The notes under the pieces are model-generated. The model was not told where the DNA came from and ran no database searches. It saw nothing but the letters and a program-made list of their open reading frames with translations. Both the position numbers and the translations under genes were made by a program. DNA of 64,000 nucleotides, from contig CBDFNI010000009.1 in NCBI GenBank assembly GCA_965250175.1, forward strand, positions 1,258,265 through 1,322,264, written 5' to 3'. Positions 8,820-34,710 of this stretch are shown in pieces. This DNA comes from Planctomycetota bacterium (GTDB lineage: Bacteria > Planctomycetota > UBA1135 > UBA2386). Each line of letters opens with the position of its first letter. Position 1 is the first letter of the stretch.

Positions 8820-8900
8820 CGTCTTGCCTCCAACGATACCTACGCACCGCAAGCGTAGGGAGGCTTAATATAAAGGCCTACTAATTCTGCGTCATACCAC
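7728..8900 (-). mobile_element. IS630-family insertion sequence (~1.17 kb)
   Basis: Imperfect terminal IRs GCGCATCACACCACTA / GCGTCATACCACTA flanked by TA dinucleotides (7726-27 and 8901-02); contains a DDE transposase with the DNYATHK motif. Confidence 0.8.
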
Positions 8901-8910
8901 TAGGTGCAGG

Positions 8911-10305
8911 CTAGCAGGCCGTTGAAGAAGGGGTGATTTGGAGATTGTCGATCCCGAGACATCCGTTTTCTGCCCCGGGATTCTTATGGCGGAAAATAAT
9001 GGCAGTCATTGCGATCCAGCAAGCTGGTTGGGGCCAAACAGATCCACAAAGCTCATATACGCGGCTGAGGAAGCCCTCAAAGCCCCTCTGCAATCCCCTT
9101 GGCGTCCCAACTCCAAACAGGCTACGCATGATCGTGCCAAGATTGCGTGCAGCGACATGGACCACGTACCGCTTTTTGACATTCTCGATGCCGCGCAACC
9201 AAGTCCGGCGTGCACCGCCTGACCCACAGGTGTGCGCAAAGCTTCTCTCCACTCGTTCACTTCGTAAGCGCTGGAGCTTTTTGGATCGCGATCCTGCAAC
9301 ACGCCGACGGTTTGCTCGATAAGCATCCTGCCACGATTCTGGTTTGTCCGTCCACTTGCGGCGGTTCTGTGACCGCGGCTGTGGTATGTAAGAAAGTATC
9401 TCTCTCTCGCTTAGCCATGCCAGGGTTTCAACTTTGTGGTAGCCCTTGTCGGCGACAACTGCCTTGTATTGGTCATCTTGCTCAGCACTGATCAGCACCG
9501 CCTGAGCCTCAATGATTCCGTCTTTCAGTGCCTCGCTGTCAGCAGTATCTGCATGGTGGATCGTCGCGGAGACGATGATCTCGGAGTCAGTGTCCAGCGC
9601 GTGCTGTGCCTTGTAGGCAAGGTGGGTACGCCCATCCTTCATCTTCGCGATCCTGCTGTCGGGGTCTGAGGGCGACTCCCAGTCCTTGTTCGAGGTCTTC
9701 TTCCCACGGCGTTTGCGATCGAATCGCCGTAAGTCCTCCTCCGTTGGGACTTCGGCCCCTTCTTCTTTCGCAAGCTCGCGCACGTAGTCATTCCAGCCCT
9801 TGCCAGTATCCTTGCGCACAATGGACTTCATTGCAGCATTGGCTTCCAACGTCGTTGTGTCCACGGCCAGTGCCTTGCCCTTCACCATGCCCTTGGATTT
9901 GGCGATCTTGACCACGAATGCAAACACCTCTTCGTGCACTTCTACTGGCAGCCGTTTGCGGATCACGGTCAAGCTGGAGTGATCAGGGGTCATCTCTGTC
10001 AGCAAAAGCCCAAGGAATTGCTGGAGCGAGCGGCTGTCACTGCAGCGCCATGCAATCCCACGCTGTGAATCCACACCTTCGAAATAGCCGACCAGCAGCA
10101 TCCGGAAGTAGACGCCTGGCGGAATTGAAGGGCGGCCGCCTTCCTTGTAGTAGGGCTCGCAAAGCGATTCGACATAGTGATCGAACTTCGCTTCGCTGAG
10201 AAGCTCATTCAGCTTCGCGTAAAACGGGTGCCCTGGAGATCGGGGAAGATTGGTCGTCGAGACCAAAAGTGCTTGCTGCTTGTCGCGTCGTTTGCCAAGT
10301 GCCAT
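8911..10305 (-). CDS. IS5-family transposase (DUF772 N-terminus + DDE_Tnp_1)
   Basis: N-terminus ...YYKEGGRPSIPPGVYFRMLLVGYFEGVDSQRGIAWRCSDSRSLQQFLGL is the hallmark of DUF772/IS5-group transposases. Confidence 0.8.
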   Translation of the reverse strand: MALGKRRDKQQALLVSTTNLPRSPGHPFYAKLNELLSEAKFDHYVESLCEPYYKEGGRPSIPPGVYFRMLLVGYFEGVDSQRGIAWRCSDSRSLQQFLGLLLTEMTPDHSSLTVIRKRLPVEVHEEVFAFVVKIAKSKGMVKGKALAVDTTTLEANAAMKSIVRKDTGKGWNDYVRELAKEEGAEVPTEEDLRRFDRKRRGKKTSNKDWESPSDPDSRIAKMKDGRTHLAYKAQHALDTDSEIIVSATIHHADTADSEALKDGIIEAQAVLISAEQDDQYKAVVADKGYHKVETLAWLSEREILSYIPQPRSQNRRKWTDKPESWQDAYRANRRRVAGSRSKKLQRLRSERVERSFAHTCGSGGARRTWLRGIENVKKRYVVHVAARNLGTIMRSLFGVGTPRGLQRGFEGFLSRVYELCGSVWPQPACWIAMTAIIFRHKNPGAENGCLGIDNLQITPSSTAC

Positions 10306-15135: not shown

Positions 15136-17295
15136 TCAGCTGCCCTGGTCTTCGCCTTGTGCGGCCTGCCGCAAACCGGGGCCTGGATTAAATCGCGAAT
15201 CCAACTTCTGCGACATCTCTTCCAGCTTGGCCAGGATGTGTTTCAGCCCTTCTTGTCGAGCATACATGGTGATGCCACCGGTGAAGGGCGGGAAGCCCAT
15301 GCCCATGACCATGCCGAGATCCAGGTCTTCTTCCGCATCCACCAGACCTTCGTGCAAGCAGCGATAGGCTTCATCCACCATGGGGTAGATCAGGCGCTCC
15401 AAGACTTCGGAACGGGACAATGGATTTTCCATGTACTTCCCGCGCAAACCCTGCAGCACCTTGGTGCCGGGTCCGGGCTTCTTGCCATGGGCATCATAGA
15501 GGCCGCCACCGCTCTTCTTGCCCAGGTGACCGGCTTGCACCATGGCGGCGAACAGGCTGCTGGGCTGCATGCGTTCAGGGAAAGCCGCGGACATGACTTC
15601 GCTGACTTTGCTGGCGACATCAAAACCAACTTCATCCATGAGGCGGGCGGGCCCCATGGGCAGGCCAAAGTCCAGGATGACCTTGTCGATGAATTCAGGT
15701 TCGCTGCCTTCCAGCATCATCCGTGCTGCTTCATTTAGATACGGTGCCAGGCAGCGATTTACCAGGAAGCCGGGGTGGTCCTTGACCACCACTGGGAATT
15801 TGCCCAGACGGACTGCTAGCTTGCAGGTGGTGGCAATGGCCGCGTCGGAACTCCGCTTGCCGCGAATGACTTCCACCAACGGCATCTTCTCCGGTGGATT
15901 GAAGAAGTGCATGCCGACCACGCGCTCCGGATTTGGCAGGCCTTCAGCCATTTCGTCCACCGGCAGCGAAGAGGTGTTGGTCGCCAGGATTGCGGTATCG
16001 GGCAAGCCCTTGTCGACGGCTTGCTTGAATAGTTTCTGCTTCAGGCTGAGGTCCTCGACCACGGCCTCCAAGAAGAAGTCCCGCCGTGCAAGGTTGCTCC
16101 AGTCGGCGCTGACTGCCAGTCGATCTTGGGCCGCCACTGCCTCGTGGCGTTTGATGCTGCGGCGGCGCAGGCGTTTGTTCAGACCTCCTTGCATGCGCTG
16201 CTTGGCGCGAGCCAGGGAATTCTCATCCAGGTCGCAGAGTCTGGTGTGCACTCCTCGGTTGGCCATCAGTCCGGCAATACCGGCACCCATGGCGCCGGCG
16301 CCAATGACTTGCGCTTGTGCAACCGGCTGTGCATCGGGCGACTTGCCCAGTCGCTTGGCACGTTCGGTCAAGAAGTAGAGATGCACGAGTGCCTTGCAGG
16401 TAGGGCTGACGATAAGTTGGCCCAGGACCTTTGCCTCCTTGGCAAAGCCATCTGCCTGGCTGAGGCTGAAGGCCTCCACGCAGAGCTCCAAAGCCGCCTT
16501 GGGAGCGGCGTAGAAGCGCGCTTGGCCATGCTCTAGTTTCTTGCGCACTTTGCCGGCGACGAAGTTGCGCAGGGGTGCAAAGTTGCTCAGCCAGTAGTCC
16601 ATGCCCCTTAATTTACGCTTCGGCTGTTTGCGTTGCTTGCGTATCAAGCGCTCCACTTCTTGTTGTGCCGCCTGCATGAGGCGAGCGCTCGGCACCACTC
16701 GGTCTACCAGGCCAACGCGTTTGGCCTTGGCTGCGGTCAGGGCCTTGCCCTGCAGGATCAAGTCCAAAGCCTTTGGCAGACCAAGCAGGCGTGCCATTCT
16801 TTGGGTGCCACCAAAGCCAGGGACGATGCCGAGTTTGACTTCCGGCAAGCCAATGCTAGTGCCGCCAAGGTCACTGGCTACTCGCAGGTCAAAGCACAGC
16901 GCCATTTCCAGTCCGCCGCCCAGGCAGGGGCCCTCAATTGCTCCCACTACCGGCACCTTCAATTCCTGAAACAAGCCAAAGATGCTGCGGCCTTTACTGG
17001 CTGCGCGTTCACCTTCTTCGGCGTCTTGAATGCTCTGGATCAGGTTGATGTCAGCGCCAGCGGCAAACATGCCTGGGCCGGGGCCGGTGACGACCAGCCC
17101 TTGCAAATCCTCATTCTTCTGCAGGCGCAGGATTACTTCCTTCAAGGAATCCAAACGCCGTTCGGTCAGGGTGATGACTTGTTCCGAGCTTGGTCCCAGA
17201 CGCAGTACAGCGATGCCGGAAACGTCGGTGGTAAGTTGAACGACACCTTCTTCTGGCTGGGTCACCTGATTCTTCTCTTTGGTCACGGAGCTCAT
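15136..17295 (-). CDS. fadJ: fatty-acid oxidation complex alpha subunit (enoyl-CoA hydratase / 3-hydroxyacyl-CoA dehydrogenase)
   Basis: 719 aa with an N-terminal crotonase fold and an NAD-binding GAGAMGAGIAGLMA motif; follows the thiolase gene as in fadIJ. Confidence 0.85.
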   Translation of the reverse strand: MSSVTKEKNQVTQPEEGVVQLTTDVSGIAVLRLGPSSEQVITLTERRLDSLKEVILRLQKNEDLQGLVVTGPGPGMFAAGADINLIQSIQDAEEGERAASKGRSIFGLFQELKVPVVGAIEGPCLGGGLEMALCFDLRVASDLGGTSIGLPEVKLGIVPGFGGTQRMARLLGLPKALDLILQGKALTAAKAKRVGLVDRVVPSARLMQAAQQEVERLIRKQRKQPKRKLRGMDYWLSNFAPLRNFVAGKVRKKLEHGQARFYAAPKAALELCVEAFSLSQADGFAKEAKVLGQLIVSPTCKALVHLYFLTERAKRLGKSPDAQPVAQAQVIGAGAMGAGIAGLMANRGVHTRLCDLDENSLARAKQRMQGGLNKRLRRRSIKRHEAVAAQDRLAVSADWSNLARRDFFLEAVVEDLSLKQKLFKQAVDKGLPDTAILATNTSSLPVDEMAEGLPNPERVVGMHFFNPPEKMPLVEVIRGKRSSDAAIATTCKLAVRLGKFPVVVKDHPGFLVNRCLAPYLNEAARMMLEGSEPEFIDKVILDFGLPMGPARLMDEVGFDVASKVSEVMSAAFPERMQPSSLFAAMVQAGHLGKKSGGGLYDAHGKKPGPGTKVLQGLRGKYMENPLSRSEVLERLIYPMVDEAYRCLHEGLVDAEEDLDLGMVMGMGFPPFTGGITMYARQEGLKHILAKLEEMSQKLDSRFNPGPGLRQAAQGEDQGS

Positions 17296-18587
17296 GCTAC
17301 CTCCAACACGAACGCTTGGCCTTGGCCTCCTCCTACACAGAGGGAAACCATGCCAAATTGTTTTCCACTTGCTTGCAACTCTTTGGCCATGCTGAGCACC
17401 AGACGAGCGCCGGTCGCGCCGATGGGGTGACCAAGGGCGATAGCGCCGCCGTTGACGTTCAGTTTTTCCGAGCTGATTTCACCCATGGCTTTGCTCATGC
17501 CTAACTCTTGTTGGCAGTAGAGGTCGCTGGCGAAGGCTTCCTGGCAGGCCAGGACCTGGGCAGCAAATGCCTCATTGATTTCAAACAGGTCGATGTCTTG
17601 CAGCATCAAGCCCGCATCCTTCAGCGCCTTGGGTGCTGCATGCACTGGCCCCAGTCCCATCTGTGCGGGATCCAGGCCGGCGCGGGAACTGCCGCGCACA
17701 ATGGCCAGGGGTTGCAAGCCCAGGCTGCGTGCCTTGTCTTCTTGCATGACCAGCATGCCTACGGCGCCATCGGTGACCTGGCAAGCATTGCCAACCGTGA
17801 CATCGCCTTCTTGCTTGTCGAACACTGGCCGTAGCTTTTGCAGGTCAGTCATGCTCTGCCCGGCACGAATACCGTTGTCCATTTTGACCATGCCCTTGAA
17901 TGCCGGTGGTGGCGTGAGCGGGCTGATCTCTTGTTGCAAGCGGCCGCTCTCTTGCGCCGCTGCAGCACGCAGATGGCTTTGCAAGGCGAAGTTGTCTTGC
18001 TGCAGGCGTTGGATGCCAAAGCGTCGAGCCAGGTTCTCCGCCGTGTTACCCATCATCAAGCCGCTGACTGGATCTCGCAGACCTTCCAAGATGGCTACCC
18101 GGGGCTTCAGGAATGAAGGTCGGAAGCTGGCAAGCAGACGCAGCTTTTGCACCGGGCTCTTTGCTTTGAACATCTTCTCGAAGAAGCCTTTGAGCTTCTC
18201 GTTCATCAGCAATGGATAGTTGGACATGGATTCCGCACCACCCACCAGGAAGACCTCGCCCTGTCCTGCTCGCATGCGAACTTCAGCGGTGAACAAGGCC
18301 TCCATGCCCGAGCCGCAATTGCGCATGACCGTGAGGGCAGGCACTGACTGTGGCAGTCCTGCGCGCAAGGCTGCAACTCTGGCAACGTTGGCTTCGTTGG
18401 GGGCCGGTCCCGCACAGCCAAGGATGACTTCGTCAACCAATGCGGGGTCAAGGCCACTGCGATCCATTACTTCGCGGAACACGTGACTGGCCATGTCGGC
18501 CGCCATCGCTCCCCGGAGTTCCGTGCCCGCCTTGCAAAACGGAGTTCTCAGGCCATCGATGATGGCTAGGTTGTTTCCTTCAGTCAT
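17292..18587 (-). CDS. fadI: acetyl-CoA C-acyltransferase (3-ketoacyl-CoA thiolase)
   Basis: Thiolase motifs NACQVTDGAVGMLVM and CVGGGQGQAFVLE; its stop overlaps the fadJ start (ATGA). Confidence 0.85.
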   Translation of the reverse strand: MTEGNNLAIIDGLRTPFCKAGTELRGAMAADMASHVFREVMDRSGLDPALVDEVILGCAGPAPNEANVARVAALRAGLPQSVPALTVMRNCGSGMEALFTAEVRMRAGQGEVFLVGGAESMSNYPLLMNEKLKGFFEKMFKAKSPVQKLRLLASFRPSFLKPRVAILEGLRDPVSGLMMGNTAENLARRFGIQRLQQDNFALQSHLRAAAAQESGRLQQEISPLTPPPAFKGMVKMDNGIRAGQSMTDLQKLRPVFDKQEGDVTVGNACQVTDGAVGMLVMQEDKARSLGLQPLAIVRGSSRAGLDPAQMGLGPVHAAPKALKDAGLMLQDIDLFEINEAFAAQVLACQEAFASDLYCQQELGMSKAMGEISSEKLNVNGGAIALGHPIGATGARLVLSMAKELQASGKQFGMVSLCVGGGQGQAFVLEVA

Positions 18588-20070
18588 ATTGGGGCCTCGA
18601 ATCCACGAACCGCTTTTCTTTGATCTCTGTCTCCATGCCCACCTTCTGCAGCATCTCCTCCAAAGGCAGGAACTCCACCCGGTTGGGGGAGATCTCAATG
18701 CGTCCCTTGAAGGCTTCCTGGATTTTCATGCGAGTGACTTCCTCGTCGGCATTGCCGCGCAGGGCTAGATGTACCACGACCTGGTCTACTTCCAGTGGGT
18801 CATTGTCCTTCTTGATCAACTCCACCTGCCACTCGTCGACTTCGGTCAAGTTGCTCAAGATTTCGGCGCAGTCTTCCAGGTTCACCAGGGTGCCTTTGAT
18901 CTTCAGTAGCTGTAGATCCTTGAGGCTGCTTTCCCGGGTCAGGTTGCTGCTGATGCGTGGGGTGGTGCGACCACAGTGTGGACAGGGCTCATATTGGATG
19001 CCGCCGCGCACCAGATCACCGGTGCGGTAACGGAAGACCGTGCTGCCCCGGCCGGTGATGGGAGTGAAGACCAGTTCGCCATCTTCTCCCTCCGGCACAA
19101 CCTGGCCAGTTTTGGGATCGATGACCTCGAAGATCGCCAGGTCCGGATACAAATGGTAGCCGGAGTAGCAGTCCGTCTCCTCGGTGGGACATTCGGCAAA
19201 GGCCATACGCGCTTCGGTGAAGCCATAGGTGCCAAAGACCTTGACCTGCTTGGCACCCATCTCCGCCAGCATTTCGCGGATCTTCTCCTTCATGCCCGGG
19301 GGCACCCGCTCGGCGCCCAGCACCACGGATTTGACTGCAGACATGTCCACCCCCTCTGCCACGCCGCGGCGCAGGAGATGATAGACATAGCCGGGCACGC
19401 CAAGCAAAGCCTGCGCCCTGGTGCGACTGATGGCTCGCAGGTCACCGGAGCTGCCCATGACCTTGCCGCCACCTGTGCTCAGCACCATCATGCCGCTTTC
19501 AAAGCCAGCAGAGACCACCTGCCAAAAGGCCAGATGTGGTGCGTAGGGGAAGATGTTCACCACTCGGAATTCCGGATTCAGCCCCAGCACCTGCACCAGC
19601 CGGCGGCCGGTGTAGCGAAGGCGTTGCAAATCGTGGCTCGAGTAGAAGAAGGGCACCGGCTCCGCAGAACGTCCCGTGGTGAAGGTCATGAAGCAGGGAT
19701 AGAACTCCCGGCGAATCTTCTCCTTCACCCAGTCCTTGCCTTTCATCCAGGATTGCAGCAGCAGCGGCAGCTTGCGCTGCAGGGGCCAGGCATTCTTGAT
19801 GGCTGCTGCGTCCGGTTGCAGGATGAACTTCTTGAAGCGCTGCAGGTCTTCCTCGGTGGGCAGCAGGTCGGATTTGCTGGTGGCTGGCAGCCGCTGTAGA
19901 TCCGCCACCGAACGGATCTGCTCTGGTCTGACCCCATGCCGGTCAAAATGGTCCTTATAGAACGGGCTGAATGGGTAGAGGTATTCCTGGACGTAGCGAG
20001 CTAGCTGCTTGTCTTGGTAGCTCCGCATCTGGCCTCTCGACCATTTCTCAACCTCTTGCCAATTTGCCAT
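18580..20070 (-). CDS. phenylacetate-CoA ligase family (PaaK-like adenylate-forming enzyme)
   Basis: PaaK/F390-synthetase-like organisation (...FTTGRSAEP..., YRTGDLVRG...CPHCGRTTPRI); 8-nt overlap with the thiolase start. Confidence 0.75.
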   Translation of the reverse strand: MANWQEVEKWSRGQMRSYQDKQLARYVQEYLYPFSPFYKDHFDRHGVRPEQIRSVADLQRLPATSKSDLLPTEEDLQRFKKFILQPDAAAIKNAWPLQRKLPLLLQSWMKGKDWVKEKIRREFYPCFMTFTTGRSAEPVPFFYSSHDLQRLRYTGRRLVQVLGLNPEFRVVNIFPYAPHLAFWQVVSAGFESGMMVLSTGGGKVMGSSGDLRAISRTRAQALLGVPGYVYHLLRRGVAEGVDMSAVKSVVLGAERVPPGMKEKIREMLAEMGAKQVKVFGTYGFTEARMAFAECPTEETDCYSGYHLYPDLAIFEVIDPKTGQVVPEGEDGELVFTPITGRGSTVFRYRTGDLVRGGIQYEPCPHCGRTTPRISSNLTRESSLKDLQLLKIKGTLVNLEDCAEILSNLTEVDEWQVELIKKDNDPLEVDQVVVHLALRGNADEEVTRMKIQEAFKGRIEISPNRVEFLPLEEMLQKVGMETEIKEKRFVDSRPQYD

Positions 20071-20240
20071 AGTGCAGTGGTGTTAACCCCAACGGTATGT
20101 TCTAGCTCCAGAATCCGGGCTGGTTTCAGGCAACTTGCCCTTTGATCCGATCTATCGACAACCAGGGGAGGGATCTTTCTCTCCCTTGTGTGCAGGTTCT
20201 GAACAACCCTTGCGGCGCAGAACATAGGAACAACGGACTT

Positions 20241-21362
20241 ATGTCATATCCAACGGCTTTGAATGGCTCTGCCAACGGCAGCACCCCCTCCTATCGGCCC
20301 AGGACCATTCTGGTGCTGGGGGGCGGCGGCATGCGCGGTTGGGCCCATATCGGAGTGATTCGGGCCCTGGAGCGCCTGGGATTGCACGTGGATGAGGTCA
20401 TTGGCACCAGCATGGGGGCGGTGATTGGTGCGCAGTACGCTGCGGGGGTGGATTCCCAGGGCATCGAAGAGGTGGCGGAAGAGTTTTCCGTGAAGGACTA
20501 CTTCAAGATCAACATCCTGAAGTTCCTGGTTAAGGGCTACCGGCATGCTTCGGTCTACAAGGGCAAGGCGTTTCGCGATGCCTTGGCCAAGAACCTGCCG
20601 CAGAACACCTTCGCTGGTCTCAACATGCCCTTCTTCTGCAATGCGCTGTCGTTGACCTCGGGCACCATGCAGTACTTTGGCCTGCCCAAGGCGCCGCCGA
20701 TTTCGCTGGCGGACGCGGTCTACGCCAGCGCTTGCTTGCCCGGCGTGTTTGAACCCTTGGAATTGGACGGCGACAGCTTCATCGATGGTGGCATGGCGGA
20801 GACCTTGTGCCTGAAGTTGGCCCATGCCCGCCGCCCGGATCTGATCATCGCCGTAGACCTGACCATCAAGGATCATCACAAGAAGGTTCCCTACCGTCCC
20901 ACCCTGCCGCACATCCTGTTCCAGACCTATGAACTCATGGGAGTTGCCTTGAACGAGCACAACCTGCATCGCTATGCCGACAACAAGGTGGTGTTGATCA
21001 AGCCCAAGGTGGCGCACATCGGTGTGCTGGATGACCCTGACGTGAGCGAGCTGATCCGTATTGGCGAGCGCGAGGCCTTGGAAGTCCTGAGTACCCATGC
21101 CCTCACCCGTTACAGCTGTGCTGTGGATGTGGTGGAAGAAGTGGATCGCACCATTCGCGAGCCCCGGGACTATGTGCAGCTGGATGTGGACATGAATGCC
21201 TGCATCAACTGTGGCGTCTGTGCCGTCACCTGTGCGACGGACGGTTATGCGGCCCTGCCCATGGGCAATGTGGTGCGCAAACTGCACAACTACGAGTGCA
21301 CCAGGGATATGGCCTGCGAGCGCAGTTGCCCTACCCGCGCCATTCGTCTGCGCAACCTCTAG
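20241..21362 (+). CDS. patatin-like phospholipase fused to a C-terminal 2x[4Fe-4S] ferredoxin domain
   Basis: Patatin motifs LGGGGMRGWAHIGV (GGxR) and GTSMG (GxSxG); C-terminus CINCGVCAVTCA ... CERSCP are two ferredoxin-type Cys clusters. Confidence 0.7.
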   Translation: MSYPTALNGSANGSTPSYRPRTILVLGGGGMRGWAHIGVIRALERLGLHVDEVIGTSMGAVIGAQYAAGVDSQGIEEVAEEFSVKDYFKINILKFLVKGYRHASVYKGKAFRDALAKNLPQNTFAGLNMPFFCNALSLTSGTMQYFGLPKAPPISLADAVYASACLPGVFEPLELDGDSFIDGGMAETLCLKLAHARRPDLIIAVDLTIKDHHKKVPYRPTLPHILFQTYELMGVALNEHNLHRYADNKVVLIKPKVAHIGVLDDPDVSELIRIGEREALEVLSTHALTRYSCAVDVVEEVDRTIREPRDYVQLDVDMNACINCGVCAVTCATDGYAALPMGNVVRKLHNYECTRDMACERSCPTRAIRLRNL

Positions 21363-21412
21363 CCTTCGCGATTGTCTAGGACCGGCTTCTAGGGCAAGCT
21401 AAGTCGCTGCTT

Positions 21413-22141
21413 ATGAATACATCCTCCACAGCCATCGTTGTCGGTGCTTCTTCAGGTATCGGTGAAGCCCTGGCCCGTCGTCTCGCAGCCCAAGGTCGCA
21501 AGGTCGCCCTGCTGGCTCGCCGCACCGAAGAGATTCAACGCATTGCCCAAGAGATTGGCGGCAAGGCCTATGTCCACGACGTCTGCCAGGCAGGCGAAGT
21601 CGAGGGCCTATGGCAACAAATCGAAGCGGACCTGGGGCCGGTGGGATCCCTGTTCTATGCCGCCGGCGTCATGCCCCCCTTGCAAGAAGACGAGTATGAC
21701 ACCGACAAAGACCTGCAACAGGTGCAGGTGAACACCATGGGTAGCATGGCCTGGGTGAACGCCGCCAGCCGTCGCTTTGCCAGCAAAGGCAGCGGCGAGA
21801 TTGTCGGCATCAGTTCGGTGGCCCAGGATCGCGGGCGTGTGGGCCGGCCGGGTTACAATGCTTCCAAGGCCGGCATGGACGTGCACCTGGAAGGGGTGCG
21901 CAACCGGCTATGGCGTCAAGGCGTGGTGGTTACCACCATCCGTCCCGGCTTCGTGCAGACTCCCATGACCGAAGGAGTGGAGGGCATGTTCTGGGTCATT
22001 TCCGCCGACCGGGCGGCGGAATTGGTCCTGCGCTCCGTCGCCAAGAAGAAGGCAGTGGCCTACATCCCAGCTCGTTGGCGTCTGGTCATGTTCATCATTC
22101 GCAACATTCCTTCCTTCATTTTCCGCAGGCTGAAAGTTTGA
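21413..22141 (+). CDS. DprE2-like short-chain dehydrogenase/reductase
   Basis: TGxxxGIG N-terminus (VVGASSGIGEALA); C-terminus AYIPARWRLVMFIIRNIPSFIFRRLKV matches M. tuberculosis DprE2 [27 protein letters not shown]. Confidence 0.75.
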   Translation: MNTSSTAIVVGASSGIGEALARRLAAQGRKVALLARRTEEIQRIAQEIGGKAYVHDVCQAGEVEGLWQQIEADLGPVGSLFYAAGVMPPLQEDEYDTDKDLQQVQVNTMGSMAWVNAASRRFASKGSGEIVGISSVAQDRGRVGRPGYNASKAGMDVHLEGVRNRLWRQGVVVTTIRPGFVQTPMTEGVEGMFWVISADRAAELVLRSVAKKKAVAYIPARWRLVMFIIRNIPSFIFRRLKV

Positions 22142-23547
22142 CTTCCTGGCAAGAGGAATTGGTCCAGGGCTGGGGCATGGCGGTCTCCGGCCGCTCTCAG
22201 GTCTGCCGCCCGCAGGATGCAGAGACAGTTGCCCAGGCCATGTCGGAGGTGCAGGGCAAAGGTGGGAGCCTGGCTCTGCGTGGCTCCGGCTGCAGCTATG
22301 GCGATGCCTCCTTGAACAGCGGTGGCCACCTCCTGGACATGACCAGGATGAATCGGCTGCTGGACTTTGACGTCGAAACCGGTGTGGCCCTGGTAGAGCC
22401 TGGCGTGACCATCCGGCAGCTGTGGCGGCATGCCATTACCTTTGGTTATTGGCCGGCGGTGGTGCCGGGCACCATGGAAGTAAGTTGTGGAGGAGCGGCG
22501 GCCATGAACATCCATGGCAAGAACAACTTTGCCCTGGGCAGCTTTGGTGAACACATCCTCAGCTTCCGCCTGCTGACTCCCCAGGGCGAAATCCTGGACT
22601 GCTCCCGGCAGGAGAATGCGCAGGTCTTCCACGGGGCCATCGGCGGCTTTGGCATGCTGGGGTGCTTTTTGCAGCTGCGCCTGCAGTTGAAGAAGGTGTA
22701 CTCCGGTCGCCTGCGGGTCACCGCTGTGGCGACAGCAGACTTGCAGGCCAACCTGGCCTACATGAATGAGCACAAGGACAGTGCCGACTACCTGGTGGGT
22801 TGGCTGGATTACTATGGCAAGGGCAAGGCCTTGGGTCGCGGTCTGATTCACCGCGGGGATCAGTGCAAGGCCGGCGAGGATCCGGCGGGCGAGAAGTTGC
22901 TGCAGCCCGAGTTGCAGGATGTGCCTTCAAGAATCATGGGCATCTATCCCAAGGCCTGGGCCTGGCCTGGCATGTGGTGCGTCGTCAAGGGCGGCATGCT
23001 GCGCTTCTTGAATGCTGCCAAGTTCCGCGCCGGCACCATGGAAGCCAATAAGCCGCCGTACCTGCAAACCCACGGTGCCTTCCACTTCCTGCTGGACTAT
23101 GTGCCCAATTGGAAGAAGGCCTTCAGCCCCGGTGGCCTGATCCAGTTCCAACCCTTCGTGCCCGCTAATGAGGCGGCGCGGGTGTTGGGCAAGCTCATTG
23201 AGATGAGCCAGCAGCGGGGCTTCATCCCCTACCTGGGGGTGCTGAAGCGCCACCGTCCTGATCCCTTCTTGATGACCCATGCGGTGGATGGCTTTTCCAT
23301 GGCCATGGACTATGCGGTGACTCAGGGGCGGCGGCAGCGGCTCTGGCATCTCTGCCGGGACATGGCCGAGGTGGTGCTGGAGGCGGGGGGGCGCTTCTAC
23401 TATGCCAAGGATGCGGTATTGCAGGCATCTTCCTTCGGCCGCATCCACGGCAGCCAGGCGGAGCAGGAGTTCCGCGCCCTCAAGGCCCAGCTGGATCCCC
23501 AGGGTCTTCTGCAAACAGATCTCTCCCGGCGGCTGTTAGGCCCTTAA
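22138..23547 (+). CDS. DprE1-like FAD-dependent oxidoreductase
   Basis: Collinear with Mtb DprE1: GWG N-terminal motif, LALRGSGCSYGDASLNSGGHLLDM, PGTMEVSCGGAAAMNIHGKNNFALGSFGEHI, LIQFQPFVPANEA, GGRFYYAKD; TTG start overlaps the DprE2-like stop (TTGA), alternative ATG at 22177. Confidence 0.8.
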   Translation: MTSWQEELVQGWGMAVSGRSQVCRPQDAETVAQAMSEVQGKGGSLALRGSGCSYGDASLNSGGHLLDMTRMNRLLDFDVETGVALVEPGVTIRQLWRHAITFGYWPAVVPGTMEVSCGGAAAMNIHGKNNFALGSFGEHILSFRLLTPQGEILDCSRQENAQVFHGAIGGFGMLGCFLQLRLQLKKVYSGRLRVTAVATADLQANLAYMNEHKDSADYLVGWLDYYGKGKALGRGLIHRGDQCKAGEDPAGEKLLQPELQDVPSRIMGIYPKAWAWPGMWCVVKGGMLRFLNAAKFRAGTMEANKPPYLQTHGAFHFLLDYVPNWKKAFSPGGLIQFQPFVPANEAARVLGKLIEMSQQRGFIPYLGVLKRHRPDPFLMTHAVDGFSMAMDYAVTQGRRQRLWHLCRDMAEVVLEAGGRFYYAKDAVLQASSFGRIHGSQAEQEFRALKAQLDPQGLLQTDLSRRLLGP

Positions 23548-23889
23548 CAAGAGAGGGGAGGCGCGGTAGACTGCCGCCGGTCCAGCCCAGGGAGGGCTAG
23601 ATTCCTGCTGGAATCCTGGCAGGAAGGTATACGATGGGCCGTAATAGGTGCGGAATGAAGGCAAACCGCCAGCCTGTCGATAAAAGAGACATCGGTGCAT
23701 GAGACATCGATCAACATTCAACTTAGGCGCCCTTTGGAGGAGCCCCATTTGATCCCGGCAGACGGAGTCCGGTAAGCGGGGCATGAAAAGACCGGCGAGG
23801 CCGGCAGGAACGCGAAGGTCGCGTTCGCCTGACCAAGAGTCGGGCAAGAGATAATCAGTAAGCCGTTAGGCAAGAGAAAAACAAACAAC
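23548..23889 (+). promoter_or_regulatory. long (~340 nt) 5' leader/promoter region upstream of rhlE
   Basis: No credible ORF; DEAD-box helicase genes commonly carry long structured 5' UTRs. Confidence 0.3.
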
Positions 23890-25161
23890 GTGACATTCAA
23901 GAAGCTCGGGCTAAGCAAGCCCATCTTGGATGGAGTCAGGGCCGCCGGATATGAGGCGCCCACCGAAATTCAACAGAACTCCATCCCTCTCGTGCTCGAC
24001 GGGCACGACCTTATTTCCTGTGGCGAAACCGGATCCGGCAAGACCGCAGCCTTTGGCCTGCCCATCCTGGAAGGGATGTTGGACCTCGAACCCGGCCTGC
24101 GTGCCGTCATCCTGGTACCAACTCGCGAACTCTGCGTGCAGGTGGCAGAAAACCTGCGCTTGTATGCCAGCCACACTGACATCAAAGTTTGCACCGCCTT
24201 TGGTGGTGTGAACATGAGCATCCAAGAGTCCGCCTTCAAGCGCGGCTTGGATGTGGTGGTTGGCTGTCCTGGTCGGATGATCGATCATCTGGAGCGGGGT
24301 AACTTCGAACTGTCCAAGGTTACGACCCTGGTGCTGGACGAAGCGGACCGCATGCTGGACATGGGCTTCATGCCGCAGATCCAGAAGATCCTCATGCGCT
24401 GCCCTGATGATCGGCAGAACCTGCTGTTCTCCGCCACCATGCCGCCGGAAGTGTCGCACCTGTGCAAGGACTTCTTGCCCGACGCCAAAAAGATCCAGGT
24501 GGGTCGGCGTTCACAGGCGGCGGCCACCATCAGCCATGAATTTGTCCAGGTGAATGGCTCGGACAAGATCCGCAAACTGGAAGATGTGCTCAGCAGGGAG
24601 CGGGGTCGGGTGCTGATCTTCGTCAAGACCAAGCTGGGAGCCCAGCGTCTGGGCAACTCCCTGCGCAAAGATGGTCTGGCGGCGGATTCCATCCACGGCG
24701 ACAAATCAGCCGAGTCTCGTTACACGGTGCTGCAGGCCTTCAACCGCGGCAAGATTCGTTGCCTGGTGGCCACGGACGTGGCGGCTCGCGGTATCGATGT
24801 GGACGACATCACCCTGGTGGTGAACTACGACATGCCCCGGGCAGTGGAAGACTATGTGCACCGGGTGGGCCGTACTGGCCGCGCCGGCAACAAGGGTCGC
24901 GCCCTGAGTCTGGTCACTGGGGCGGATCGGGGTGTGCATAATGCCATCCTGCACAACCTGGATGCGAAGACCGACAAGGAAGCTGGCGAAGCCTCTCAGG
25001 AAGGGGTGGCGGCGACGGAAGCACGAGAAGGTCGTGGTCGCGGTGGTGGTGGAAGAAGTGGCGGCGGCGGTCGAAACGGCGGCGGTCGCGGAGGCCCGCG
25101 CCGCAGCGGTGCCCCTGTAGGAGGTCGATCCTCCGGTGGCCGGTCTTCTGGTCGCCGATAA
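23890..25161 (+). CDS. rhlE: ATP-dependent DEAD-box RNA helicase
   Basis: Q-motif, GSGKT, DEAD (VLDEADRMLDMGF), SAT, HRVGRTGRAG, and a C-terminal RGG-rich tail; GTG start. Confidence 0.85.
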   Translation: MTFKKLGLSKPILDGVRAAGYEAPTEIQQNSIPLVLDGHDLISCGETGSGKTAAFGLPILEGMLDLEPGLRAVILVPTRELCVQVAENLRLYASHTDIKVCTAFGGVNMSIQESAFKRGLDVVVGCPGRMIDHLERGNFELSKVTTLVLDEADRMLDMGFMPQIQKILMRCPDDRQNLLFSATMPPEVSHLCKDFLPDAKKIQVGRRSQAAATISHEFVQVNGSDKIRKLEDVLSRERGRVLIFVKTKLGAQRLGNSLRKDGLAADSIHGDKSAESRYTVLQAFNRGKIRCLVATDVAARGIDVDDITLVVNYDMPRAVEDYVHRVGRTGRAGNKGRALSLVTGADRGVHNAILHNLDAKTDKEAGEASQEGVAATEAREGRGRGGGGRSGGGGRNGGGRGGPRRSGAPVGGRSSGGRSSGRR

Positions 25162-33108: not shown

Positions 33109-34710
33109 AGGAGGTGTAGGTCATGCCGGGTGCTGATTTCGTCTGGGGACCTTGTATTCGCAAAGGAGAACGCGGATAGCTGCATCTGAAACTCGGTGGG
33201 TTCCCGGTACAGGTTGTAGGCCCTCTTTGAGGATGTGGCAGAGTGCCAAGCCGCCCTGGCGGTTTGGCATCTAAGGAAAGGGCCGTGAGCCGTAGGGGCA
33301 GTCAAGGCTGGCCGTAGGCCACGAGCGGAGCGAGCTTGGCCTTTATGGCACCGAGGCTTGCGGCACAGAGCTGGGGAAAGCTGTTTGCGTTGAGCCAAGC
33401 GTACATAGAAATTGCGCACTGACTGCGTCGAGCATGTTTGATCGCTCTCGACGCAATGGACTTAGTTTTACGCAAGGTCGCATCAGTGCGCGTCACCACC
33501 CTACTCAACAAGCTCCTCAATCTCCAGGGGCTCCGGGTCACCGGAGCCCAATTTCAAGACGGCGAGATGATTCTCAGTGTCCACCGACGATTCCAGCTTC
33601 TGACCTGCCCACACTGTGGCAAGCGCAAGCGTGGCCGAGAATCCAAACGAAAGCGGCGATGGCGACACTTGGGCATCTGGGGCCATGAGGTTTACTTGGA
33701 GGGTGAAATACGGCGTTTACGGTGCAAGAAATGCAATGTGGTTGTGACCGAGGCGGTCCCCTGGGCCAGGCATGGCAGTGACTTTACCAAGCCCTTTGAG
33801 GATGTGGTCGCCCTGCTGGCGCAGCAAACAAACGTAACAGCCGTCGCCAGGCTGACTGGGATTTCGTGGGTGACCGTAGGAGCAATCGCTGAGCGTGTCG
33901 TCAGCGAGAACCTTGACCCAAACCGCTTTGATGGTCTGCGCCGCATTGCTGTGGACGAAATCAGCTTCCGCAAGCGACACCGCTACCTGACGGTGGTCAC
34001 CGACCACGACAAGAGAAGGGTAATCTGGGTCGCCGAAGGCAAGAGTGCTGATGTGTTCAAGAGATTTTTCACCGAAATCGGTGCTGATGCTTGCGAGCAC
34101 ATCGAAATTGCCACCATGGACATGTCGGCTGCCTACCGAAAGGCGGCAGCGGAAAATCTTCCAAATGCACAGATCGTCTTTGATCACTTCCACATTGCCA
34201 AGTTGGCCAACGAAGCTCTCAACGAGGTCCGGCGTGAACTCATGCGCAATGCCGACAATCCCGATGCCAAGAAGGCAATCAAGGGAACGATGTGGGCACT
34301 CCTTCACCGCCAAGATAACACCACCGAAAAGCACATGGGCATCATCGGTCATCTTCGCCCGGAGCAACCACTTGGGCGCGCCTACTTGCTCAAGGAGACT
34401 CTGCTCGACATCCTGCGAGGCAGCATCAAAGAGTCAGAGCTTGCTCTTGATGGTTGGATGGCCTGGGCTTCACGCTCCCGACTCAAGCCATTCGTCAAAC
34501 TCGGCAAAACGATCCGCAAACACCTTGGCGGGATCCTGGCTCTCTTCAAAGAACGATTCACCAATGGCCTGGCGGAAGGCATGAACAACAAAATTCGCCT
34601 CCTCAGCCATCGCGCCTATGGCTTCCACAGCGCAGCCCCTTTGATTGCTACCATCTTCCTCTGCTGTGGTGGGGTCAGGCTTCCTGACCTACAACTGCTT
34701 TAGGAGAACC
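33100..34710 (+). mobile_element. ISL3-family insertion sequence (~1.6 kb)
   Basis: ~24-bp terminal IRs TCTCCTAAAG[G/C]AG[G/T]TGTAGGTCA (33101-33123; 34685-34708 reverse complement) flanked by direct repeat (G)AAATTCAGC (33090-33099 and 34711-34720). Confidence 0.8.
33438..34703 (+). CDS. ISL3-family transposase
   Basis: zf-ISL3 N-terminus (LLNLQGLRVTG...CPHCG...C) and DDE region with C-terminal TNGLAEGMNNKIRLL...RAYGF typical of ISL3. Confidence 0.85.
   Translation: MIALDAMDLVLRKVASVRVTTLLNKLLNLQGLRVTGAQFQDGEMILSVHRRFQLLTCPHCGKRKRGRESKRKRRWRHLGIWGHEVYLEGEIRRLRCKKCNVVVTEAVPWARHGSDFTKPFEDVVALLAQQTNVTAVARLTGISWVTVGAIAERVVSENLDPNRFDGLRRIAVDEISFRKRHRYLTVVTDHDKRRVIWVAEGKSADVFKRFFTEIGADACEHIEIATMDMSAAYRKAAAENLPNAQIVFDHFHIAKLANEALNEVRRELMRNADNPDAKKAIKGTMWALLHRQDNTTEKHMGIIGHLRPEQPLGRAYLLKETLLDILRGSIKESELALDGWMAWASRSRLKPFVKLGKTIRKHLGGILALFKERFTNGLAEGMNNKIRLLSHRAYGFHSAAPLIATIFLCCGGVRLPDLQLL

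What the first reader, a model, noticed from the sequence alone, without database searches (positions are those of the whole stretch)
21413..23547. DprE2-like SDR and DprE1-like FAD oxidase pair (putative polyprenyl-phospho-sugar 2'-epimerase) with overlapping start and stop
The 545-aa FAD oxidase is collinear with M. tuberculosis DprE1 (GWG N-terminus, ...GRSYGD..., PGT..VTVGGAIA.DIHGKN.., FLQYQFVIP, GGRLYTAKD, C-terminal VDP...F.SD..RRL). The upstream 242-aa SDR ends AYIPARWRLVMFIIRNIPSFIFRRLKV, nearly the DprE2 C-terminus. The two genes overlap by 4 nt (TTGA), implying a coupled heteromeric system. In mycobacteria this pair converts decaprenyl-P-ribose to decaprenyl-P-arabinose. Here there are no mycobacterial arabinan genes nearby; a patatin-ferredoxin fusion lies upstream and a GT2/GT2/GT1 cluster lies elsewhere in the window. 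This suggests a non-canonical arabinofuranose-type (or other 2'-epimerised) lipid-linked sugar pathway.
Basis: partly seen in the sequence, partly recalled or inferred. Interest (0 to 1): 0.65.

Follow-up and report, generated by a model that had tools for sequence, protein, structure and literature searches.

The report
Divergent DprE2/DprE1-like lipid-sugar epimerase pair
Two overlapping genes in a planctomycete genome encode distant relatives of the two-enzyme system that tuberculosis bacteria use to make the arabinose donor for their cell wall, which is a credible but fairly ordinary hint that this phylum also makes a lipid-linked arabinofuranose.

Summary
A 242-aa SDR (21413-22141) and a FAD oxidase sit head to tail and share TTGA. 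The oxidase is 469 aa from TTG 22138.

The oxidase is a full-length DprE1 homologue by HMM, sequence and fold, and it keeps the DprE1 pocket residues. The SDR is DprE2-like, including the characteristic C-terminal helix. Both score below NCBI's family cut-offs. The oxidase lies outside the clade that holds M. tuberculosis DprE1 and the proteobacterial enzymes (100/100 NJ bootstraps).

The pair belongs to a large uncharacterised "SDR-first" clade found in Planctomycetota, Armatimonadota and others. The SDR is directly upstream in 82 of 85 related genome loci. None of these loci, nor the window, has a polyprenyl-phosphoribose synthase, GtrA or GT-C gene nearby.

In other SDR-first lineages, 14 of 50 evaluable metagenome loci carry a bona fide phosphoribosyltransferase directly upstream. 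One of these lineages is close to the window's.

The most likely function is therefore 2'-epimerisation of polyprenyl-phospho-ribose to polyprenyl-phospho-arabinofuranose, with the partner genes dispersed elsewhere. This is a new, divergent member of a known kind and of modest interest. I could not test whether this genome has a synthase.

The parts
21413..22141 (+). Gene for a 242-aa classical short-chain dehydrogenase/reductase, DprE2-like (predicted 2'-keto reductase)
   Evidence: ORF. Pfam adh_short 1e-36. Best NCBIfam match is PRK07102, 187 bits against a cut-off of 267; DprE2 NF053786 scores 126 bits against 250. Both matches are full length. PRK07102 is the family of the synthase-linked proteobacterial DprE2-like SDRs, which score 359 bits. 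The PDB DprE2 chain 21gq_C matches residues 5-241 and is the only full-length match. GxxxGxG and the Ser134/Tyr148/Lys152 triad are conserved with DprE2.
22067..22138 (+). C-terminal helical tail of the SDR (residues 219-242, PARWRLVMFIIRNIPSFIFRRLKV). This is the DprE2-type signature and a likely membrane or partner contact.
   Evidence: Alignment with M. tuberculosis and Rhodococcus DprE2 and three proteobacterial DprE2-like SDRs: M226, P233 and F237 are invariant, and the pattern W/F-R-x-[VI]-M-x-[IV]-[IL]-R-x-[IV]-P-x-x-[IV]-F-[RK]-[RK]-L is shared. The AF2 model has helices at 221-231 and 234-239. Other SDRs in the PDB align only up to about residue 190-200.
22138..22141 (+). TTGA: the oxidase start codon TTG overlaps the SDR stop codon TGA, giving 4-nt translational coupling
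   Evidence: Sequence read directly. The start position is supported by conserved N-termini of homologues and by the GC frame pattern.
22138..23547 (+). Gene for a 469-aa FAD-dependent oxidase, DprE1-like (predicted 2'-oxidase)
   Evidence: NCBIfam DprE1 NF053785 scores 301 bits over 8-466 of the protein and 4-447 of 449 model positions, against a cut-off of 500. The next family scores 73 bits. PDB DprE1 matches at E 1.8e-57 over residues 9-466. The AF2 model has pLDDT 83 and pTM 0.86. Foldseek's top 49 hits are all DprE1 with TM 0.77-0.91.
22198..22605 (+). FAD-binding PCMH/VAO-type domain (residues 21-156)
   Evidence: Pfam PF01565 FAD_binding_4, 1.5e-28, profile positions 3-139 of 139.
22513..22521 (+). 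His126-Gly127-Lys128, equivalent to M. tuberculosis DprE1 His132-Gly133-Lys134 of the active site
   Evidence: Pairwise alignment with PDB DprE1. Invariant in 40 close homologues and in both the SDR-first and canonical clades.
23407..23409 (+). Lys424 codon, equivalent to the catalytic Lys418 of M. tuberculosis DprE1 (motif GGRFYYAKD)
   Evidence: Alignment. Invariant in homologues.
21910..22137 (+). Non-coding 5' extension of the oxidase reading frame.
   Evidence: GC by codon position is [0.74, 0.57, 0.45] in this frame and [0.57, 0.45, 0.74] in the SDR frame. No homology upstream of the TTG.

Best explanation
The two genes encode a cytoplasmic, membrane-peripheral two-enzyme epimerase of the DprE1/DprE2 type.

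Proposed mechanism:
1. The FAD oxidase (22138-23547) oxidises the 2'-hydroxyl of a polyprenyl-phosphate-linked beta-D-ribofuranose to the 2'-keto sugar. The reduced flavin is re-oxidised by quinone or O2.
2. The SDR (21413-22141) reduces the keto group from the opposite face with NAD(P)H. An Arg-Arg after strand beta2 suggests NADPH.
3. The product is polyprenyl-phospho-D-arabinofuranose, a donor for glycosylation outside the cytoplasmic membrane.

The TTGA overlap couples translation of the two subunits, which in characterised systems form a complex.

The pair belongs to a large, uncharacterised 'SDR-first' sister clade of the canonical DprE1/DprE2. In the window's own lineage (Planctomycetota) the synthase, flippase and transferase genes are not adjacent and must lie elsewhere in the genome.

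Shown here: homology, fold, conserved pocket, conserved pairing, and synthase linkage in related lineages. Inferred: the substrate, the stereochemical outcome, the cofactor preference, the complex formation, and the existence of the partner genes in this genome.
For: (1) The oxidase's best and only strong family match is DprE1, full length, 301 bits against 73 for the next family. PDB DprE1 matches at E 1.8e-57. The top 49 fold matches are DprE1, TM 0.77-0.91.

(2) The DprE1 pocket columns Y60, G117, H132, K134, N135, W230, L317, Q334, Q336, L363, V365, K367, D389, Y415, K418 and D419 are kept in the window protein and in the 17 representatives of its clade examined (all identical except single substitutions at V365 and Y415). 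They match the canonical clade.

(3) The SDR's best NCBIfam matches include the proteobacterial DprE2-like family PRK07102 and DprE2 itself, both full length. It shares the catalytic triad and the DprE2-specific C-terminal helix.

(4) The SDR is directly upstream on the same strand in 82 of 85 related genome loci (two exceptions are contig edges). The flanking genes differ between lineages, so the pair is the conserved unit.

(5) In a metagenome sample of the SDR-first clade, 14 of 50 evaluable loci have a UbiA-type gene directly upstream, mostly 0-20 nt away. The three tested pass NCBIfam's curated cut-offs for decaprenyl-phosphate phosphoribosyltransferase: NF008977 235 and 252 bits against 234, NF008978 219-224 bits against 207. 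Their SDR and oxidase give the same sub-threshold scores as the window pair.

(6) One such locus, L179, has an oxidase 46% and an SDR 52% identical to the window's. It reads 7-TM membrane protein, synthase, SDR, oxidase. It groups with the window oxidase to the exclusion of the canonical and aminotransferase-linked clades in 54 of 60 NJ bootstraps.

(7) Experimentally validated DprE1 of P. aeruginosa is only 33% identical to the M. tuberculosis enzyme (bioRxiv 10.1101/2020.04.19.049825). The window's 30% identity is therefore not disqualifying.
Against: - Neither protein reaches the NCBIfam equivalog cut-off: 301 against 500, 126 against 250, 187 against 267.
- The oxidase is outside the clade containing every enzyme with known or context-supported function, 100/100.
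- No phosphoribose synthase, GtrA or GT-C-like gene lies in the 64-kb window or within 10 kb of the pair in any of the 85 closest genome loci, 1.46 Mb in all. All 7 canonical clusters examined have them adjacent.
- The window clade has invariant differences in the pocket: F369 to His, and Ser at the N385 position where most canonical members have Thr.
- No D-arabinofuranose glycan is reported for Planctomycetota in the literature I could search.
- Whether this genome has a synthase is untested.
- The trees are neighbour-joining only and have no outgroup.
Confidence: 0.65

Rival explanations
1. Same chemistry, different substrate. The pair oxidises and then re-reduces a secondary alcohol of another membrane-anchored glycosyl compound, such as a different polyprenyl-phospho-sugar or a ribosylated lipid like ribosylhopane. 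In the window's lineage it would have become independent of the phosphoribose synthase.
For: There is no synthase, GtrA or GT-C linkage in 85 of 85 nearest loci or in the window. The clade is distinct from all validated enzymes. It has clade-specific pocket changes, His at the F369 position and Ser at the N385 position. The wider family does show functional drift: in the P0171 clade an aminotransferase and an acetyltransferase replace the SDR, and Q334/Q336 become Glu.
Against: The pocket residues, including the Lys and Arg positions, are otherwise the same as in canonical DprE1. SDR-first relatives are operon-linked to a bona fide phosphoribose synthase in two sublineages, one of them near the window's. 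No alternative pathway genes, for example hopanoid genes, recur next to the pair. Dispersed pathway genes are usual in planctomycete genomes (my own knowledge, not tested here).
Confidence: 0.2
2. The pair is part of a lipid-turnover module with its upstream neighbours: the patatin-ferredoxin fusion, a PaaK/FlxY-like acyl-CoA ligase, and thiolase with FadB. It would act on an acyl-lipid or fatty-acid-derived alcohol, not on a sugar.
For: The patatin-ferredoxin gene ends only 50 nt upstream of the SDR on the same strand. The same fusion lies 1-3 gene positions upstream of the oxidase in 12 related loci, and FadB is nearby in 9.
Against: These neighbours occur only in the closest relatives. In other sublineages they are replaced by SurA-like, prenyltransferase-repeat, SMC or transposase genes while the pair stays intact. 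That is synteny by descent. The thiolase, FadB and ligase genes are on the opposite strand. The oxidase matches a sugar-2'-oxidase over its full length and keeps that enzyme's pocket.
Confidence: 0.04
3. The two genes are unrelated general oxidoreductases, a VAO-type alcohol or lactone oxidase and a FabG-like ketoreductase, that happen to be adjacent.
For: Public records name them only 'FAD-binding oxidoreductase' and 'SDR family NAD(P)-dependent oxidoreductase'. The SDR fold search is dominated by FabG-like reductases. By sequence, three FabG-like chains score slightly above DprE2 in the PDB.
Against: The adjacency is conserved in 82 of 85 genome loci and 71 of 80 metagenome loci across several phyla. 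SDR and oxidase identities fall together, about 60% with 60% and about 48% with 50%. Only DprE2 matches the SDR through its C-terminal tail. Lactone and alditol oxidase models score at most 73 bits.
Confidence: 0.05

Closest known systems
Mycobacterium tuberculosis DprE1 (Rv3790) / DprE2 (Rv3791), decaprenyl-phospho-ribose 2'-epimerase
   Same: Same two protein families and the same predicted two-step oxidation and reduction. Full-length collinearity for both proteins. Same fold for the oxidase (TM 0.8-0.9). The catalytic Lys, His-Gly-Lys and Gln-x-Gln pocket are conserved. The SDR has the same catalytic triad and C-terminal helix. The genes are adjacent.
   Different: Identity is only 29.5% for the oxidase and 27% for the SDR. 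Both are below the NCBIfam cut-offs. The oxidase is in a separate clade, 100/100. The gene order is reversed. Cys387, the benzothiazinone target, is Ala. No aftA/emb or GtrA-like genes are adjacent.
Gram-negative D-Araf clusters: P. aeruginosa PsPA7_6245-6249, and the HAD-UbiA / GtrA / oxidase / SDR (PRK07102) / membrane-protein clusters on Rhizobium, Tateyamaria, Salipiger, Cereibacter and Paracoccus plasmids
   Same: These are non-actinobacterial DprE1/E2 homologues. The window SDR's best NCBIfam match is their SDR family PRK07102, and it is 34-36% identical to them. Their two genes also overlap by 4 nt. Ala at the Cys387 position is common to both.
   Different: In those clusters the order is oxidase then SDR, and the synthase, GtrA and polytopic membrane proteins are always adjacent, 6 of 6. 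Their oxidases score 404 bits on the DprE1 model against 301 here and cluster with M. tuberculosis DprE1.
Uncharacterised SDR-first operons found here in metagenomes (for example L108, L115, L179): phosphoribosyltransferase, SDR, oxidase
   Same: Same gene order. Same sub-threshold HMM profile: oxidase 282-301 bits on DprE1, and PRK07102 is the SDR's best match. Same side of the tree as the window. L179 has an oxidase 46% and an SDR 52% identical to the window's.
   Different: They carry the synthase directly upstream, and L179 also carries a 7-TM membrane protein. The window and its 85 nearest relatives do not.
Three-component pentofuranose glycosylation systems (Kelly et al. 2024, PMC11127046)
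   Same: This is the conceptual framework: a polyprenyl-phospho-ribose donor made from PRPP, optionally epimerised, then flipped and used by a GT-C enzyme. DprE1/E2 homologues accompany Araf-containing glycans.
   Different: None of the three components (synthase, MATE or GtrA flippase, GT-C) is present in the window. The Citrobacter epimerase ORF13 is a single GalE-like SDR, not an oxidase/reductase pair.

Membership tests
DprE1 (decaprenylphosphoryl-beta-D-ribose oxidase, NCBIfam NF053785) | Score at or above the curated equivalog cut-off (500 bits) | tested here: not met
   301.2 bits, full length. Synthase-linked proteobacterial homologues also fall short at 404 bits.
DprE1 (decaprenylphosphoryl-beta-D-ribose oxidase, NCBIfam NF053785) | DprE1 is the best-matching family among VAO/PCMH flavoenzymes, and the match is collinear over the whole protein | tested here: met
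   Residues 8-466 match model positions 4-447 of 449. The next family, bact_FAD_ox, scores 73 bits. PDB DprE1 matches at E 1.8e-57, and the next PDB protein at 6e-12.
DprE1 (decaprenylphosphoryl-beta-D-ribose oxidase, NCBIfam NF053785) | DprE1 fold: FAD-binding domain plus DprE1-type substrate domain | tested here: met
   AF2 model pLDDT 83, pTM 0.86. The top 49 PDB matches are all DprE1, TM 0.77-0.91. The first non-DprE1 match has TM 0.70.
DprE1 (decaprenylphosphoryl-beta-D-ribose oxidase, NCBIfam NF053785) | Active-site residues Lys418, His132, Lys134, Tyr60, Gln334, Gln336 and Lys367 | tested here: met
   All are conserved in the window protein and invariant in its clade.
DprE1 (decaprenylphosphoryl-beta-D-ribose oxidase, NCBIfam NF053785) | Cys387 (site of benzothiazinone adduct; characteristic of mycobacterial DprE1, not required for catalysis) | tested here: not met
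   Ala389 is at this position, as in most non-mycobacterial homologues.
DprE1 (decaprenylphosphoryl-beta-D-ribose oxidase, NCBIfam NF053785) | Falls inside the clade that contains M. tuberculosis DprE1 and the synthase-linked proteobacterial enzymes | tested here: not met
   The canonical set of 22 sequences is monophyletic and excludes the window in 100 of 100 NJ bootstraps. The tree is distance-based with no outgroup.
DprE1 (decaprenylphosphoryl-beta-D-ribose oxidase, NCBIfam NF053785) | Oxidises polyprenyl-phospho-beta-D-ribofuranose at C2' | not testable with these tools
   Needs an enzyme assay.
DprE2 (NF053786) / proteobacterial DprE2-like SDR (PRK07102, NF005489) | Score at or above the curated cut-offs (250 and 267 bits) | tested here: not met
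   126.3 and 187.3 bits. Both matches are full length, and PRK07102 is the best of 221 SDR models.
DprE2 (NF053786) / proteobacterial DprE2-like SDR (PRK07102, NF005489) | Classical SDR cofactor motif and Ser-Tyr-Lys triad | tested here: met
   GASSGIG, Ser134/135, Tyr148 and Lys152 are aligned with DprE2 and invariant across 7 sequences.
DprE2 (NF053786) / proteobacterial DprE2-like SDR (PRK07102, NF005489) | C-terminal helix ending ...R-x-[IV]-P-x-x-[IV]-F-[RK]-[RK]-L-x-x | tested here: met
   WRLVMFIIRNIPSFIFRRLKV aligns with [21 protein letters not shown] of M. tuberculosis and IWRLIMFIIRAIPETIFKKLSL of Tateyamaria. Only DprE2 among PDB SDRs aligns through residue 241.
DprE2 (NF053786) / proteobacterial DprE2-like SDR (PRK07102, NF005489) | Encoded next to a DprE1-type oxidase | tested here: met
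   Adjacent in the window with a 4-nt overlap, in 82 of 85 genome loci and in 71 of 80 metagenome loci. The order is reversed relative to all 7 canonical clusters.
Lipid-linked pentofuranose (D-Araf) glycosylation pathway (synthase + phosphatase + epimerase + flippase + GT-C) | Polyprenyl-phosphate phosphoribosyltransferase (UbiA family) encoded with the epimerase | tested here: not met
   None in the 64-kb window or within 10 kb in 85 related loci. The positive control works. The feature is met in 14 of 50 more distant SDR-first loci.
Lipid-linked pentofuranose (D-Araf) glycosylation pathway (synthase + phosphatase + epimerase + flippase + GT-C) | Phosphoribosyltransferase present anywhere in the same genome | not testable with these tools
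   Only 64 kb of a contig of at least 1.67 Mb is available. A profile search for the synthase listed only Rhodobacterales and Mycobacterium proteins among the rows that carry an organism name.
Lipid-linked pentofuranose (D-Araf) glycosylation pathway (synthase + phosphatase + epimerase + flippase + GT-C) | GtrA/MATE flippase and GT-C transferase encoded nearby | tested here: not met
   No GtrA and no homologue of the proteobacterial cluster membrane proteins in any locus. The window Pfam scan shows only cytoplasmic GT2/GT2/GT4 genes 14 kb away, beyond two transposases. Single cases elsewhere: a MatE gene upstream in L079 and a 7-TM protein in L179.

The most novel reading that the evidence does not exclude
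In the window's lineage the SDR-first pair has been uncoupled from the phosphoribose synthase and epimerises a different ribofuranosyl lipid. The most interesting candidate is ribosylhopane. Its ribose C-2' becomes C-34 of bacteriohopanetetrol (my own knowledge of the hpnH/hpnG route). A 2'-epimerase would therefore yield the 34R stereoisomer used as an anammox and planctomycete biomarker, and the one hopanoid survey I consulted names no gene for it. Nothing found here supports this reading beyond the lack of synthase linkage. The conserved Lys and Arg of the pocket argue for a phospho-sugar.
Probability: 0.07. Interest if true: 0.75.

Novelty: new member of a known kind. Interest (0 to 1): 0.33.

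Why it matters
If the inference is right, Planctomycetota, together with Armatimonadota, Sumerlaeota and other little-studied phyla, make a polyprenyl-phospho-D-arabinofuranose donor. They would therefore carry a D-arabinofuranose-containing envelope glycan or glycoprotein that has not been described.

That would extend a pathway known mainly as an anti-tuberculosis drug target and from a few proteobacterial glycans to a much wider part of the bacterial tree.

The practical outputs are these:
- Recognition of a large SDR-first subfamily. The wider DprE1-like superfamily has about 1,100 clusters at 50% identity, and current NCBIfam equivalog models leave this subfamily named only 'FAD-binding oxidoreductase' and 'SDR family oxidoreductase'.
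- A corrected start for this oxidase gene.
- A short list of metagenome operons (synthase, SDR, oxidase) suitable for biochemical testing.

It does not overturn anything. The concept of auxiliary DprE1/E2 epimerases in non-mycobacterial glycan pathways is already published.

Tried and rejected
(1) Synthase in planctomycete genomes. I searched the protein database with a profile of Rv3806c plus three proteobacterial synthase domains. Among the 120 rows shown, every row that carries an organism name is Rhodobacterales or Mycobacterium, so co-occurrence could not be tested. The Rv3806c sequence was recalled from memory and verified as identical to PDB 8j8j.

(2) Identifying the source assembly. 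The exact-sequence look-ups of P0001 and P0390 are not on record. The genome scan did not return the window itself.

(3) Promoter and terminator scan of 19900-24100. Counts equal those of shuffled sequence.

(4) Fold search with the SDR model. It returns generic FabG-like SDRs and does not discriminate DprE2.

(5) Literature on DprE1 in Planctomycetota or other phyla. Nothing relevant. One search was a badly posed query.

(6) First gene-calling pass by longest ORF. It picked antisense ORFs in these GC-rich loci. I replaced it with a codon-position GC filter and with direct tblastn.

(7) Functional link to the patatin-ferredoxin, FadAB and ligase genes. Rejected as lineage-restricted synteny.

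(8) MatE (L079) and Wzy_C (L090/L091) neighbours as recurrent partners. Each occurs in one lineage only.

(9) Hopanoid idea. The recurrent neighbour with prenyltransferase-like repeats has only a sub-threshold SQHop_cyclase_C hit, 22 bits against 26. No other support.

(10) DHH/DHHA1 phosphoesterase downstream of the oxidase in L092, L105 and L113, and one gene further on in L115, as a possible 5'-phosphatase. In L092 it is followed by truB, so this may be housekeeping synteny. Left open.

Full report
**What is there.** On the + strand an ATG-initiated ORF (21413-22141, 242 aa) is followed by a second ORF that ends at 23547. The sequence at 22138-22141 is TTGA, so a TTG start overlaps the TGA stop of the first gene by 4 nt.

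That stretch overlaps the SDR gene in another frame. Its codon-position GC is non-coding in that frame, [0.74, 0.57, 0.45], against [0.57, 0.45, 0.74] in the SDR frame. Homologues begin within three residues of the TTG and conserve W4, G11, W12 and G13 just after it. The oxidase is therefore 469 aa. The public gene call (456 aa, from ATG 22177) is conversely too short.

**Family assignment of the oxidase.**
- Pfam sees only the FAD_binding_4 domain.
- NCBIfam's DprE1 model matches end to end at 301 bits, against 73 bits for the next flavoenzyme family. This is below the 500-bit equivalog cut-off.
- Against the PDB, only DprE1 chains match strongly: E 1.8e-57 over residues 9-466, with the next protein at 6e-12.
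- An AlphaFold model (pLDDT 83, pTM 0.86) has DprE1 as its top 49 structural matches, TM 0.77-0.91. The first other enzyme is L-galactonolactone dehydrogenase at TM 0.70.
- The pocket residues of M. tuberculosis DprE1 (Y60, H132, K134, W230, Q334, Q336, K367, D389 and the catalytic K418) are all present in the window protein and invariant in its clade. Cys387 is Ala, as in most non-mycobacterial homologues. F369 is His and the N385 position is Ser.

**Family assignment of the SDR.**
- It is a classical SDR.
- Of 221 matching NCBIfam SDR models, the best is PRK07102 (187 bits against a cut-off of 267). DprE2 scores 126 bits against 250. Both matches are full length.
- PRK07102 turned out to be the family of the DprE2-like reductases in proteobacterial arabinofuranose-type clusters. 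The Rhizobium protein scores 359 bits.
- In the PDB, only DprE2 (21gq chain C) aligns through the C-terminus.
- A multiple alignment shows the shared triad and the shared C-terminal helix.
- The SDR fold itself is not discriminating.

**The pair is the conserved unit.** A scan of one genome per species found 569 relatives. The best 80 are Planctomycetota MAGs at 59-68% identity, plus Armatimonadota-, Sumerlaeota- and Chlorobiota-labelled MAGs at about 50%.

In 82 of the 85 loci held at that point, the SDR lies directly upstream on the same strand. Two of the three exceptions are contig edges. The gap is usually 2-190 nt, and the 4-nt overlap is shared only with L016.

The flanking genes change between sublineages:
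- a patatin-ferredoxin fusion and FadB in the closest relatives;
- a SurA-like protein and a prenyltransferase-repeat protein in another group;
- SMC, transposases and others elsewhere.

**Relation to the known systems.** Seven canonical clusters were examined: six proteobacterial plasmids and Rhodococcus. All read oxidase then SDR. All have GtrA adjacent, together with a HAD-UbiA phosphoribose synthase and polytopic membrane proteins, or AftA in Rhodococcus. The P. aeruginosa PsPA7_6245-6249 cluster has the same organisation (bioRxiv 10.1101/2020.04.19.049825).

M. tuberculosis DprE1 is 37% identical to the proteobacterial oxidases, whereas the window oxidase is 30-33% identical to either.

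Among 1.84 billion representative proteins there are 1,103 clusters with E <= 1e-30, and they form a continuum of similarity. In NJ trees, the clade holding M. tuberculosis and the proteobacterial enzymes is monophyletic and excludes the window in 100 of 100 bootstraps.

The window pair is thus not an orthologue of Rv3790/Rv3791. It is a member of a sister 'SDR-first' group. Sampled contexts of other non-canonical clusters confirm SDR then oxidase without a synthase. They also reveal a further clade in which an aminotransferase and an acetyltransferase replace the SDR.

**Is the substrate still polyprenyl-phospho-ribose?** I built profiles from Rv3806c (recalled, then verified against PDB 8j8j) plus the proteobacterial synthases, and from the proteobacterial GtrA and cluster membrane proteins. 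They find nothing in the window or within 10 kb of the pair in the 85 nearest loci, 1.46 Mb in all. They do recover their own sources.

I then scanned metagenome contigs with an alignment of non-canonical representatives. This gave 80 more SDR-first loci, with a median of 45% identity to the window oxidase.
- In 14 of the 50 with at least 1 kb upstream, a UbiA-family gene sits directly upstream on the same strand, mostly 0-20 nt away.
- Three were tested. Two pass NF008977 (235 and 252 bits against 234; the third scores 222) and all three pass NF008978 (219-224 bits against 207), NCBIfam's curated models for decaprenyl-phosphate phosphoribosyltransferase.
- Their SDR and oxidase show the same sub-threshold scores as the window pair.
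- Thirteen of the 14 form one sublineage.
- The fourteenth, L179, has an oxidase 46% and an SDR 52% identical to the window's. It reads 7-TM membrane protein, synthase, SDR, oxidase.
- L179 groups with the window to the exclusion of the canonical and aminotransferase clades in 54 of 60 bootstraps.

This is the main positive evidence that the SDR-first enzymes work on the synthase's product.

**Mechanism proposed.** The oxidase is predicted to convert polyprenyl-phospho-beta-D-ribofuranose to the 2'-keto intermediate. The SDR is predicted to reduce it to polyprenyl-phospho-beta-D-arabinofuranose. The two proteins would act as a complex at the cytoplasmic face of the membrane, as shown for the mycobacterial and Pseudomonas enzymes (PMC9993113; bioRxiv 10.1101/2020.04.19.049825). 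The product would then be flipped and used by GT-C-type transferases encoded elsewhere.

Shown here: homology, fold, pocket, pairing, and synthase linkage in relatives. Inferred: everything about the substrate, the product, the cofactor and the partner genes in this genome.

**What remains open.** I could not determine whether this genome encodes a synthase. The only route available returned other taxa. The absence of linkage in all 85 nearest relatives leaves room for a different substrate in this lineage; I put that at about 0.2. Dispersed pathway genes are typical of planctomycetes, but that is my own knowledge and was not tested here. The trees are distance-based and unrooted by any outgroup. 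No literature on this pair in Planctomycetota was found.

**Verdict.**
The idea of such epimerases outside mycobacteria is already established (PMC11127046).
- It is a new, divergent member of a known kind. Interest is about 0.33.

Noticed in passing
window 20142-21362 (+): A patatin-like phospholipase is fused to a C-terminal 2x[4Fe-4S] ferredoxin domain, an unusual pairing of a lipase with a redox module. It sits 50 nt upstream of the SDR. The same fusion lies 1-3 gene positions upstream of the oxidase in 12 of 85 related loci.
   Followed up: partly
window 22138-22176 (public gene call starts at 22177): The public protein for the oxidase (P0001, 456 aa) starts at the internal ATG and omits 13 conserved N-terminal residues, including the GWG motif. 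The likely true start is the TTG that overlaps the SDR stop.
   Followed up: yes
window 7725-8852, 8911-10305, 33438-34703, 43769-45268, 45470-46849: Five transposase genes of five different families (DDE_3, DUF772+DDE_Tnp_1, ISL3, IS91-type Y2, DDE_Tnp_1_4) lie in 64 kb. Two of them separate the GT2/GT2/GT4 genes (4373-7717) from the rest.
   Followed up: no
L094 5635-9300 and L095 (protein P0171): A DprE1-like oxidase 34% identical to the window's is flanked by a class-III aminotransferase and an acetyltransferase instead of an SDR. It sits inside a glycan cluster (GT2, two GT4, DUF2079, two B12-radical SAM, Bac_transf). Its pocket has Q334/Q336 changed to Glu/Glu and W230 changed to Gln. 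This looks like oxidation, transamination and N-acetylation of a lipid-linked sugar, which as far as I know is an undescribed variation.
   Followed up: partly
L179 3083-8084; L108 8173-11389; L102-L116 and L119: Compact metagenome operons read phosphoribosyltransferase, SDR, oxidase, with abutting or overlapping ORFs. In L179 a 505-aa protein with 7 TM segments and no Pfam match precedes them; it is a candidate new GT-C-like transferase.
   Followed up: partly
L079 2411-3955 (Candidatus Sumerlaeota MAG): A MatE-family transporter lies directly upstream of the oxidase, and no SDR is in the locus. MATE proteins are the proposed flippases of undecaprenyl-phospho-ribose in Citrobacter (PMC11127046). 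This is a single case.
   Followed up: partly
L092 1962-2966; L105 11448-12431; L113 11461-12450; L115 12742-13719: A DHH/DHHA1 phosphoesterase lies directly downstream of the SDR-first pair in L092, L105 and L113, and one gene further on in L115. It could be the missing 5'-phosphatase of the pathway, or just nrnA-truB housekeeping synteny.
   Followed up: no
window 15136-20070 (-): FadB-like multifunctional enzyme, thiolase and a PaaK/FlxY-like adenylate-forming ligase lie in a row on the minus strand, divergent from the patatin-ferredoxin gene.
   Followed up: no
L090 9236-14095 and L091 (protein P0127): SDR, oxidase, a Wzy_C (O-antigen ligase-like) membrane protein and a methyltransferase lie in a row in a lineage 43% identical to the window oxidase. 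This is another hint of a surface-glycan role.
   Followed up: partly
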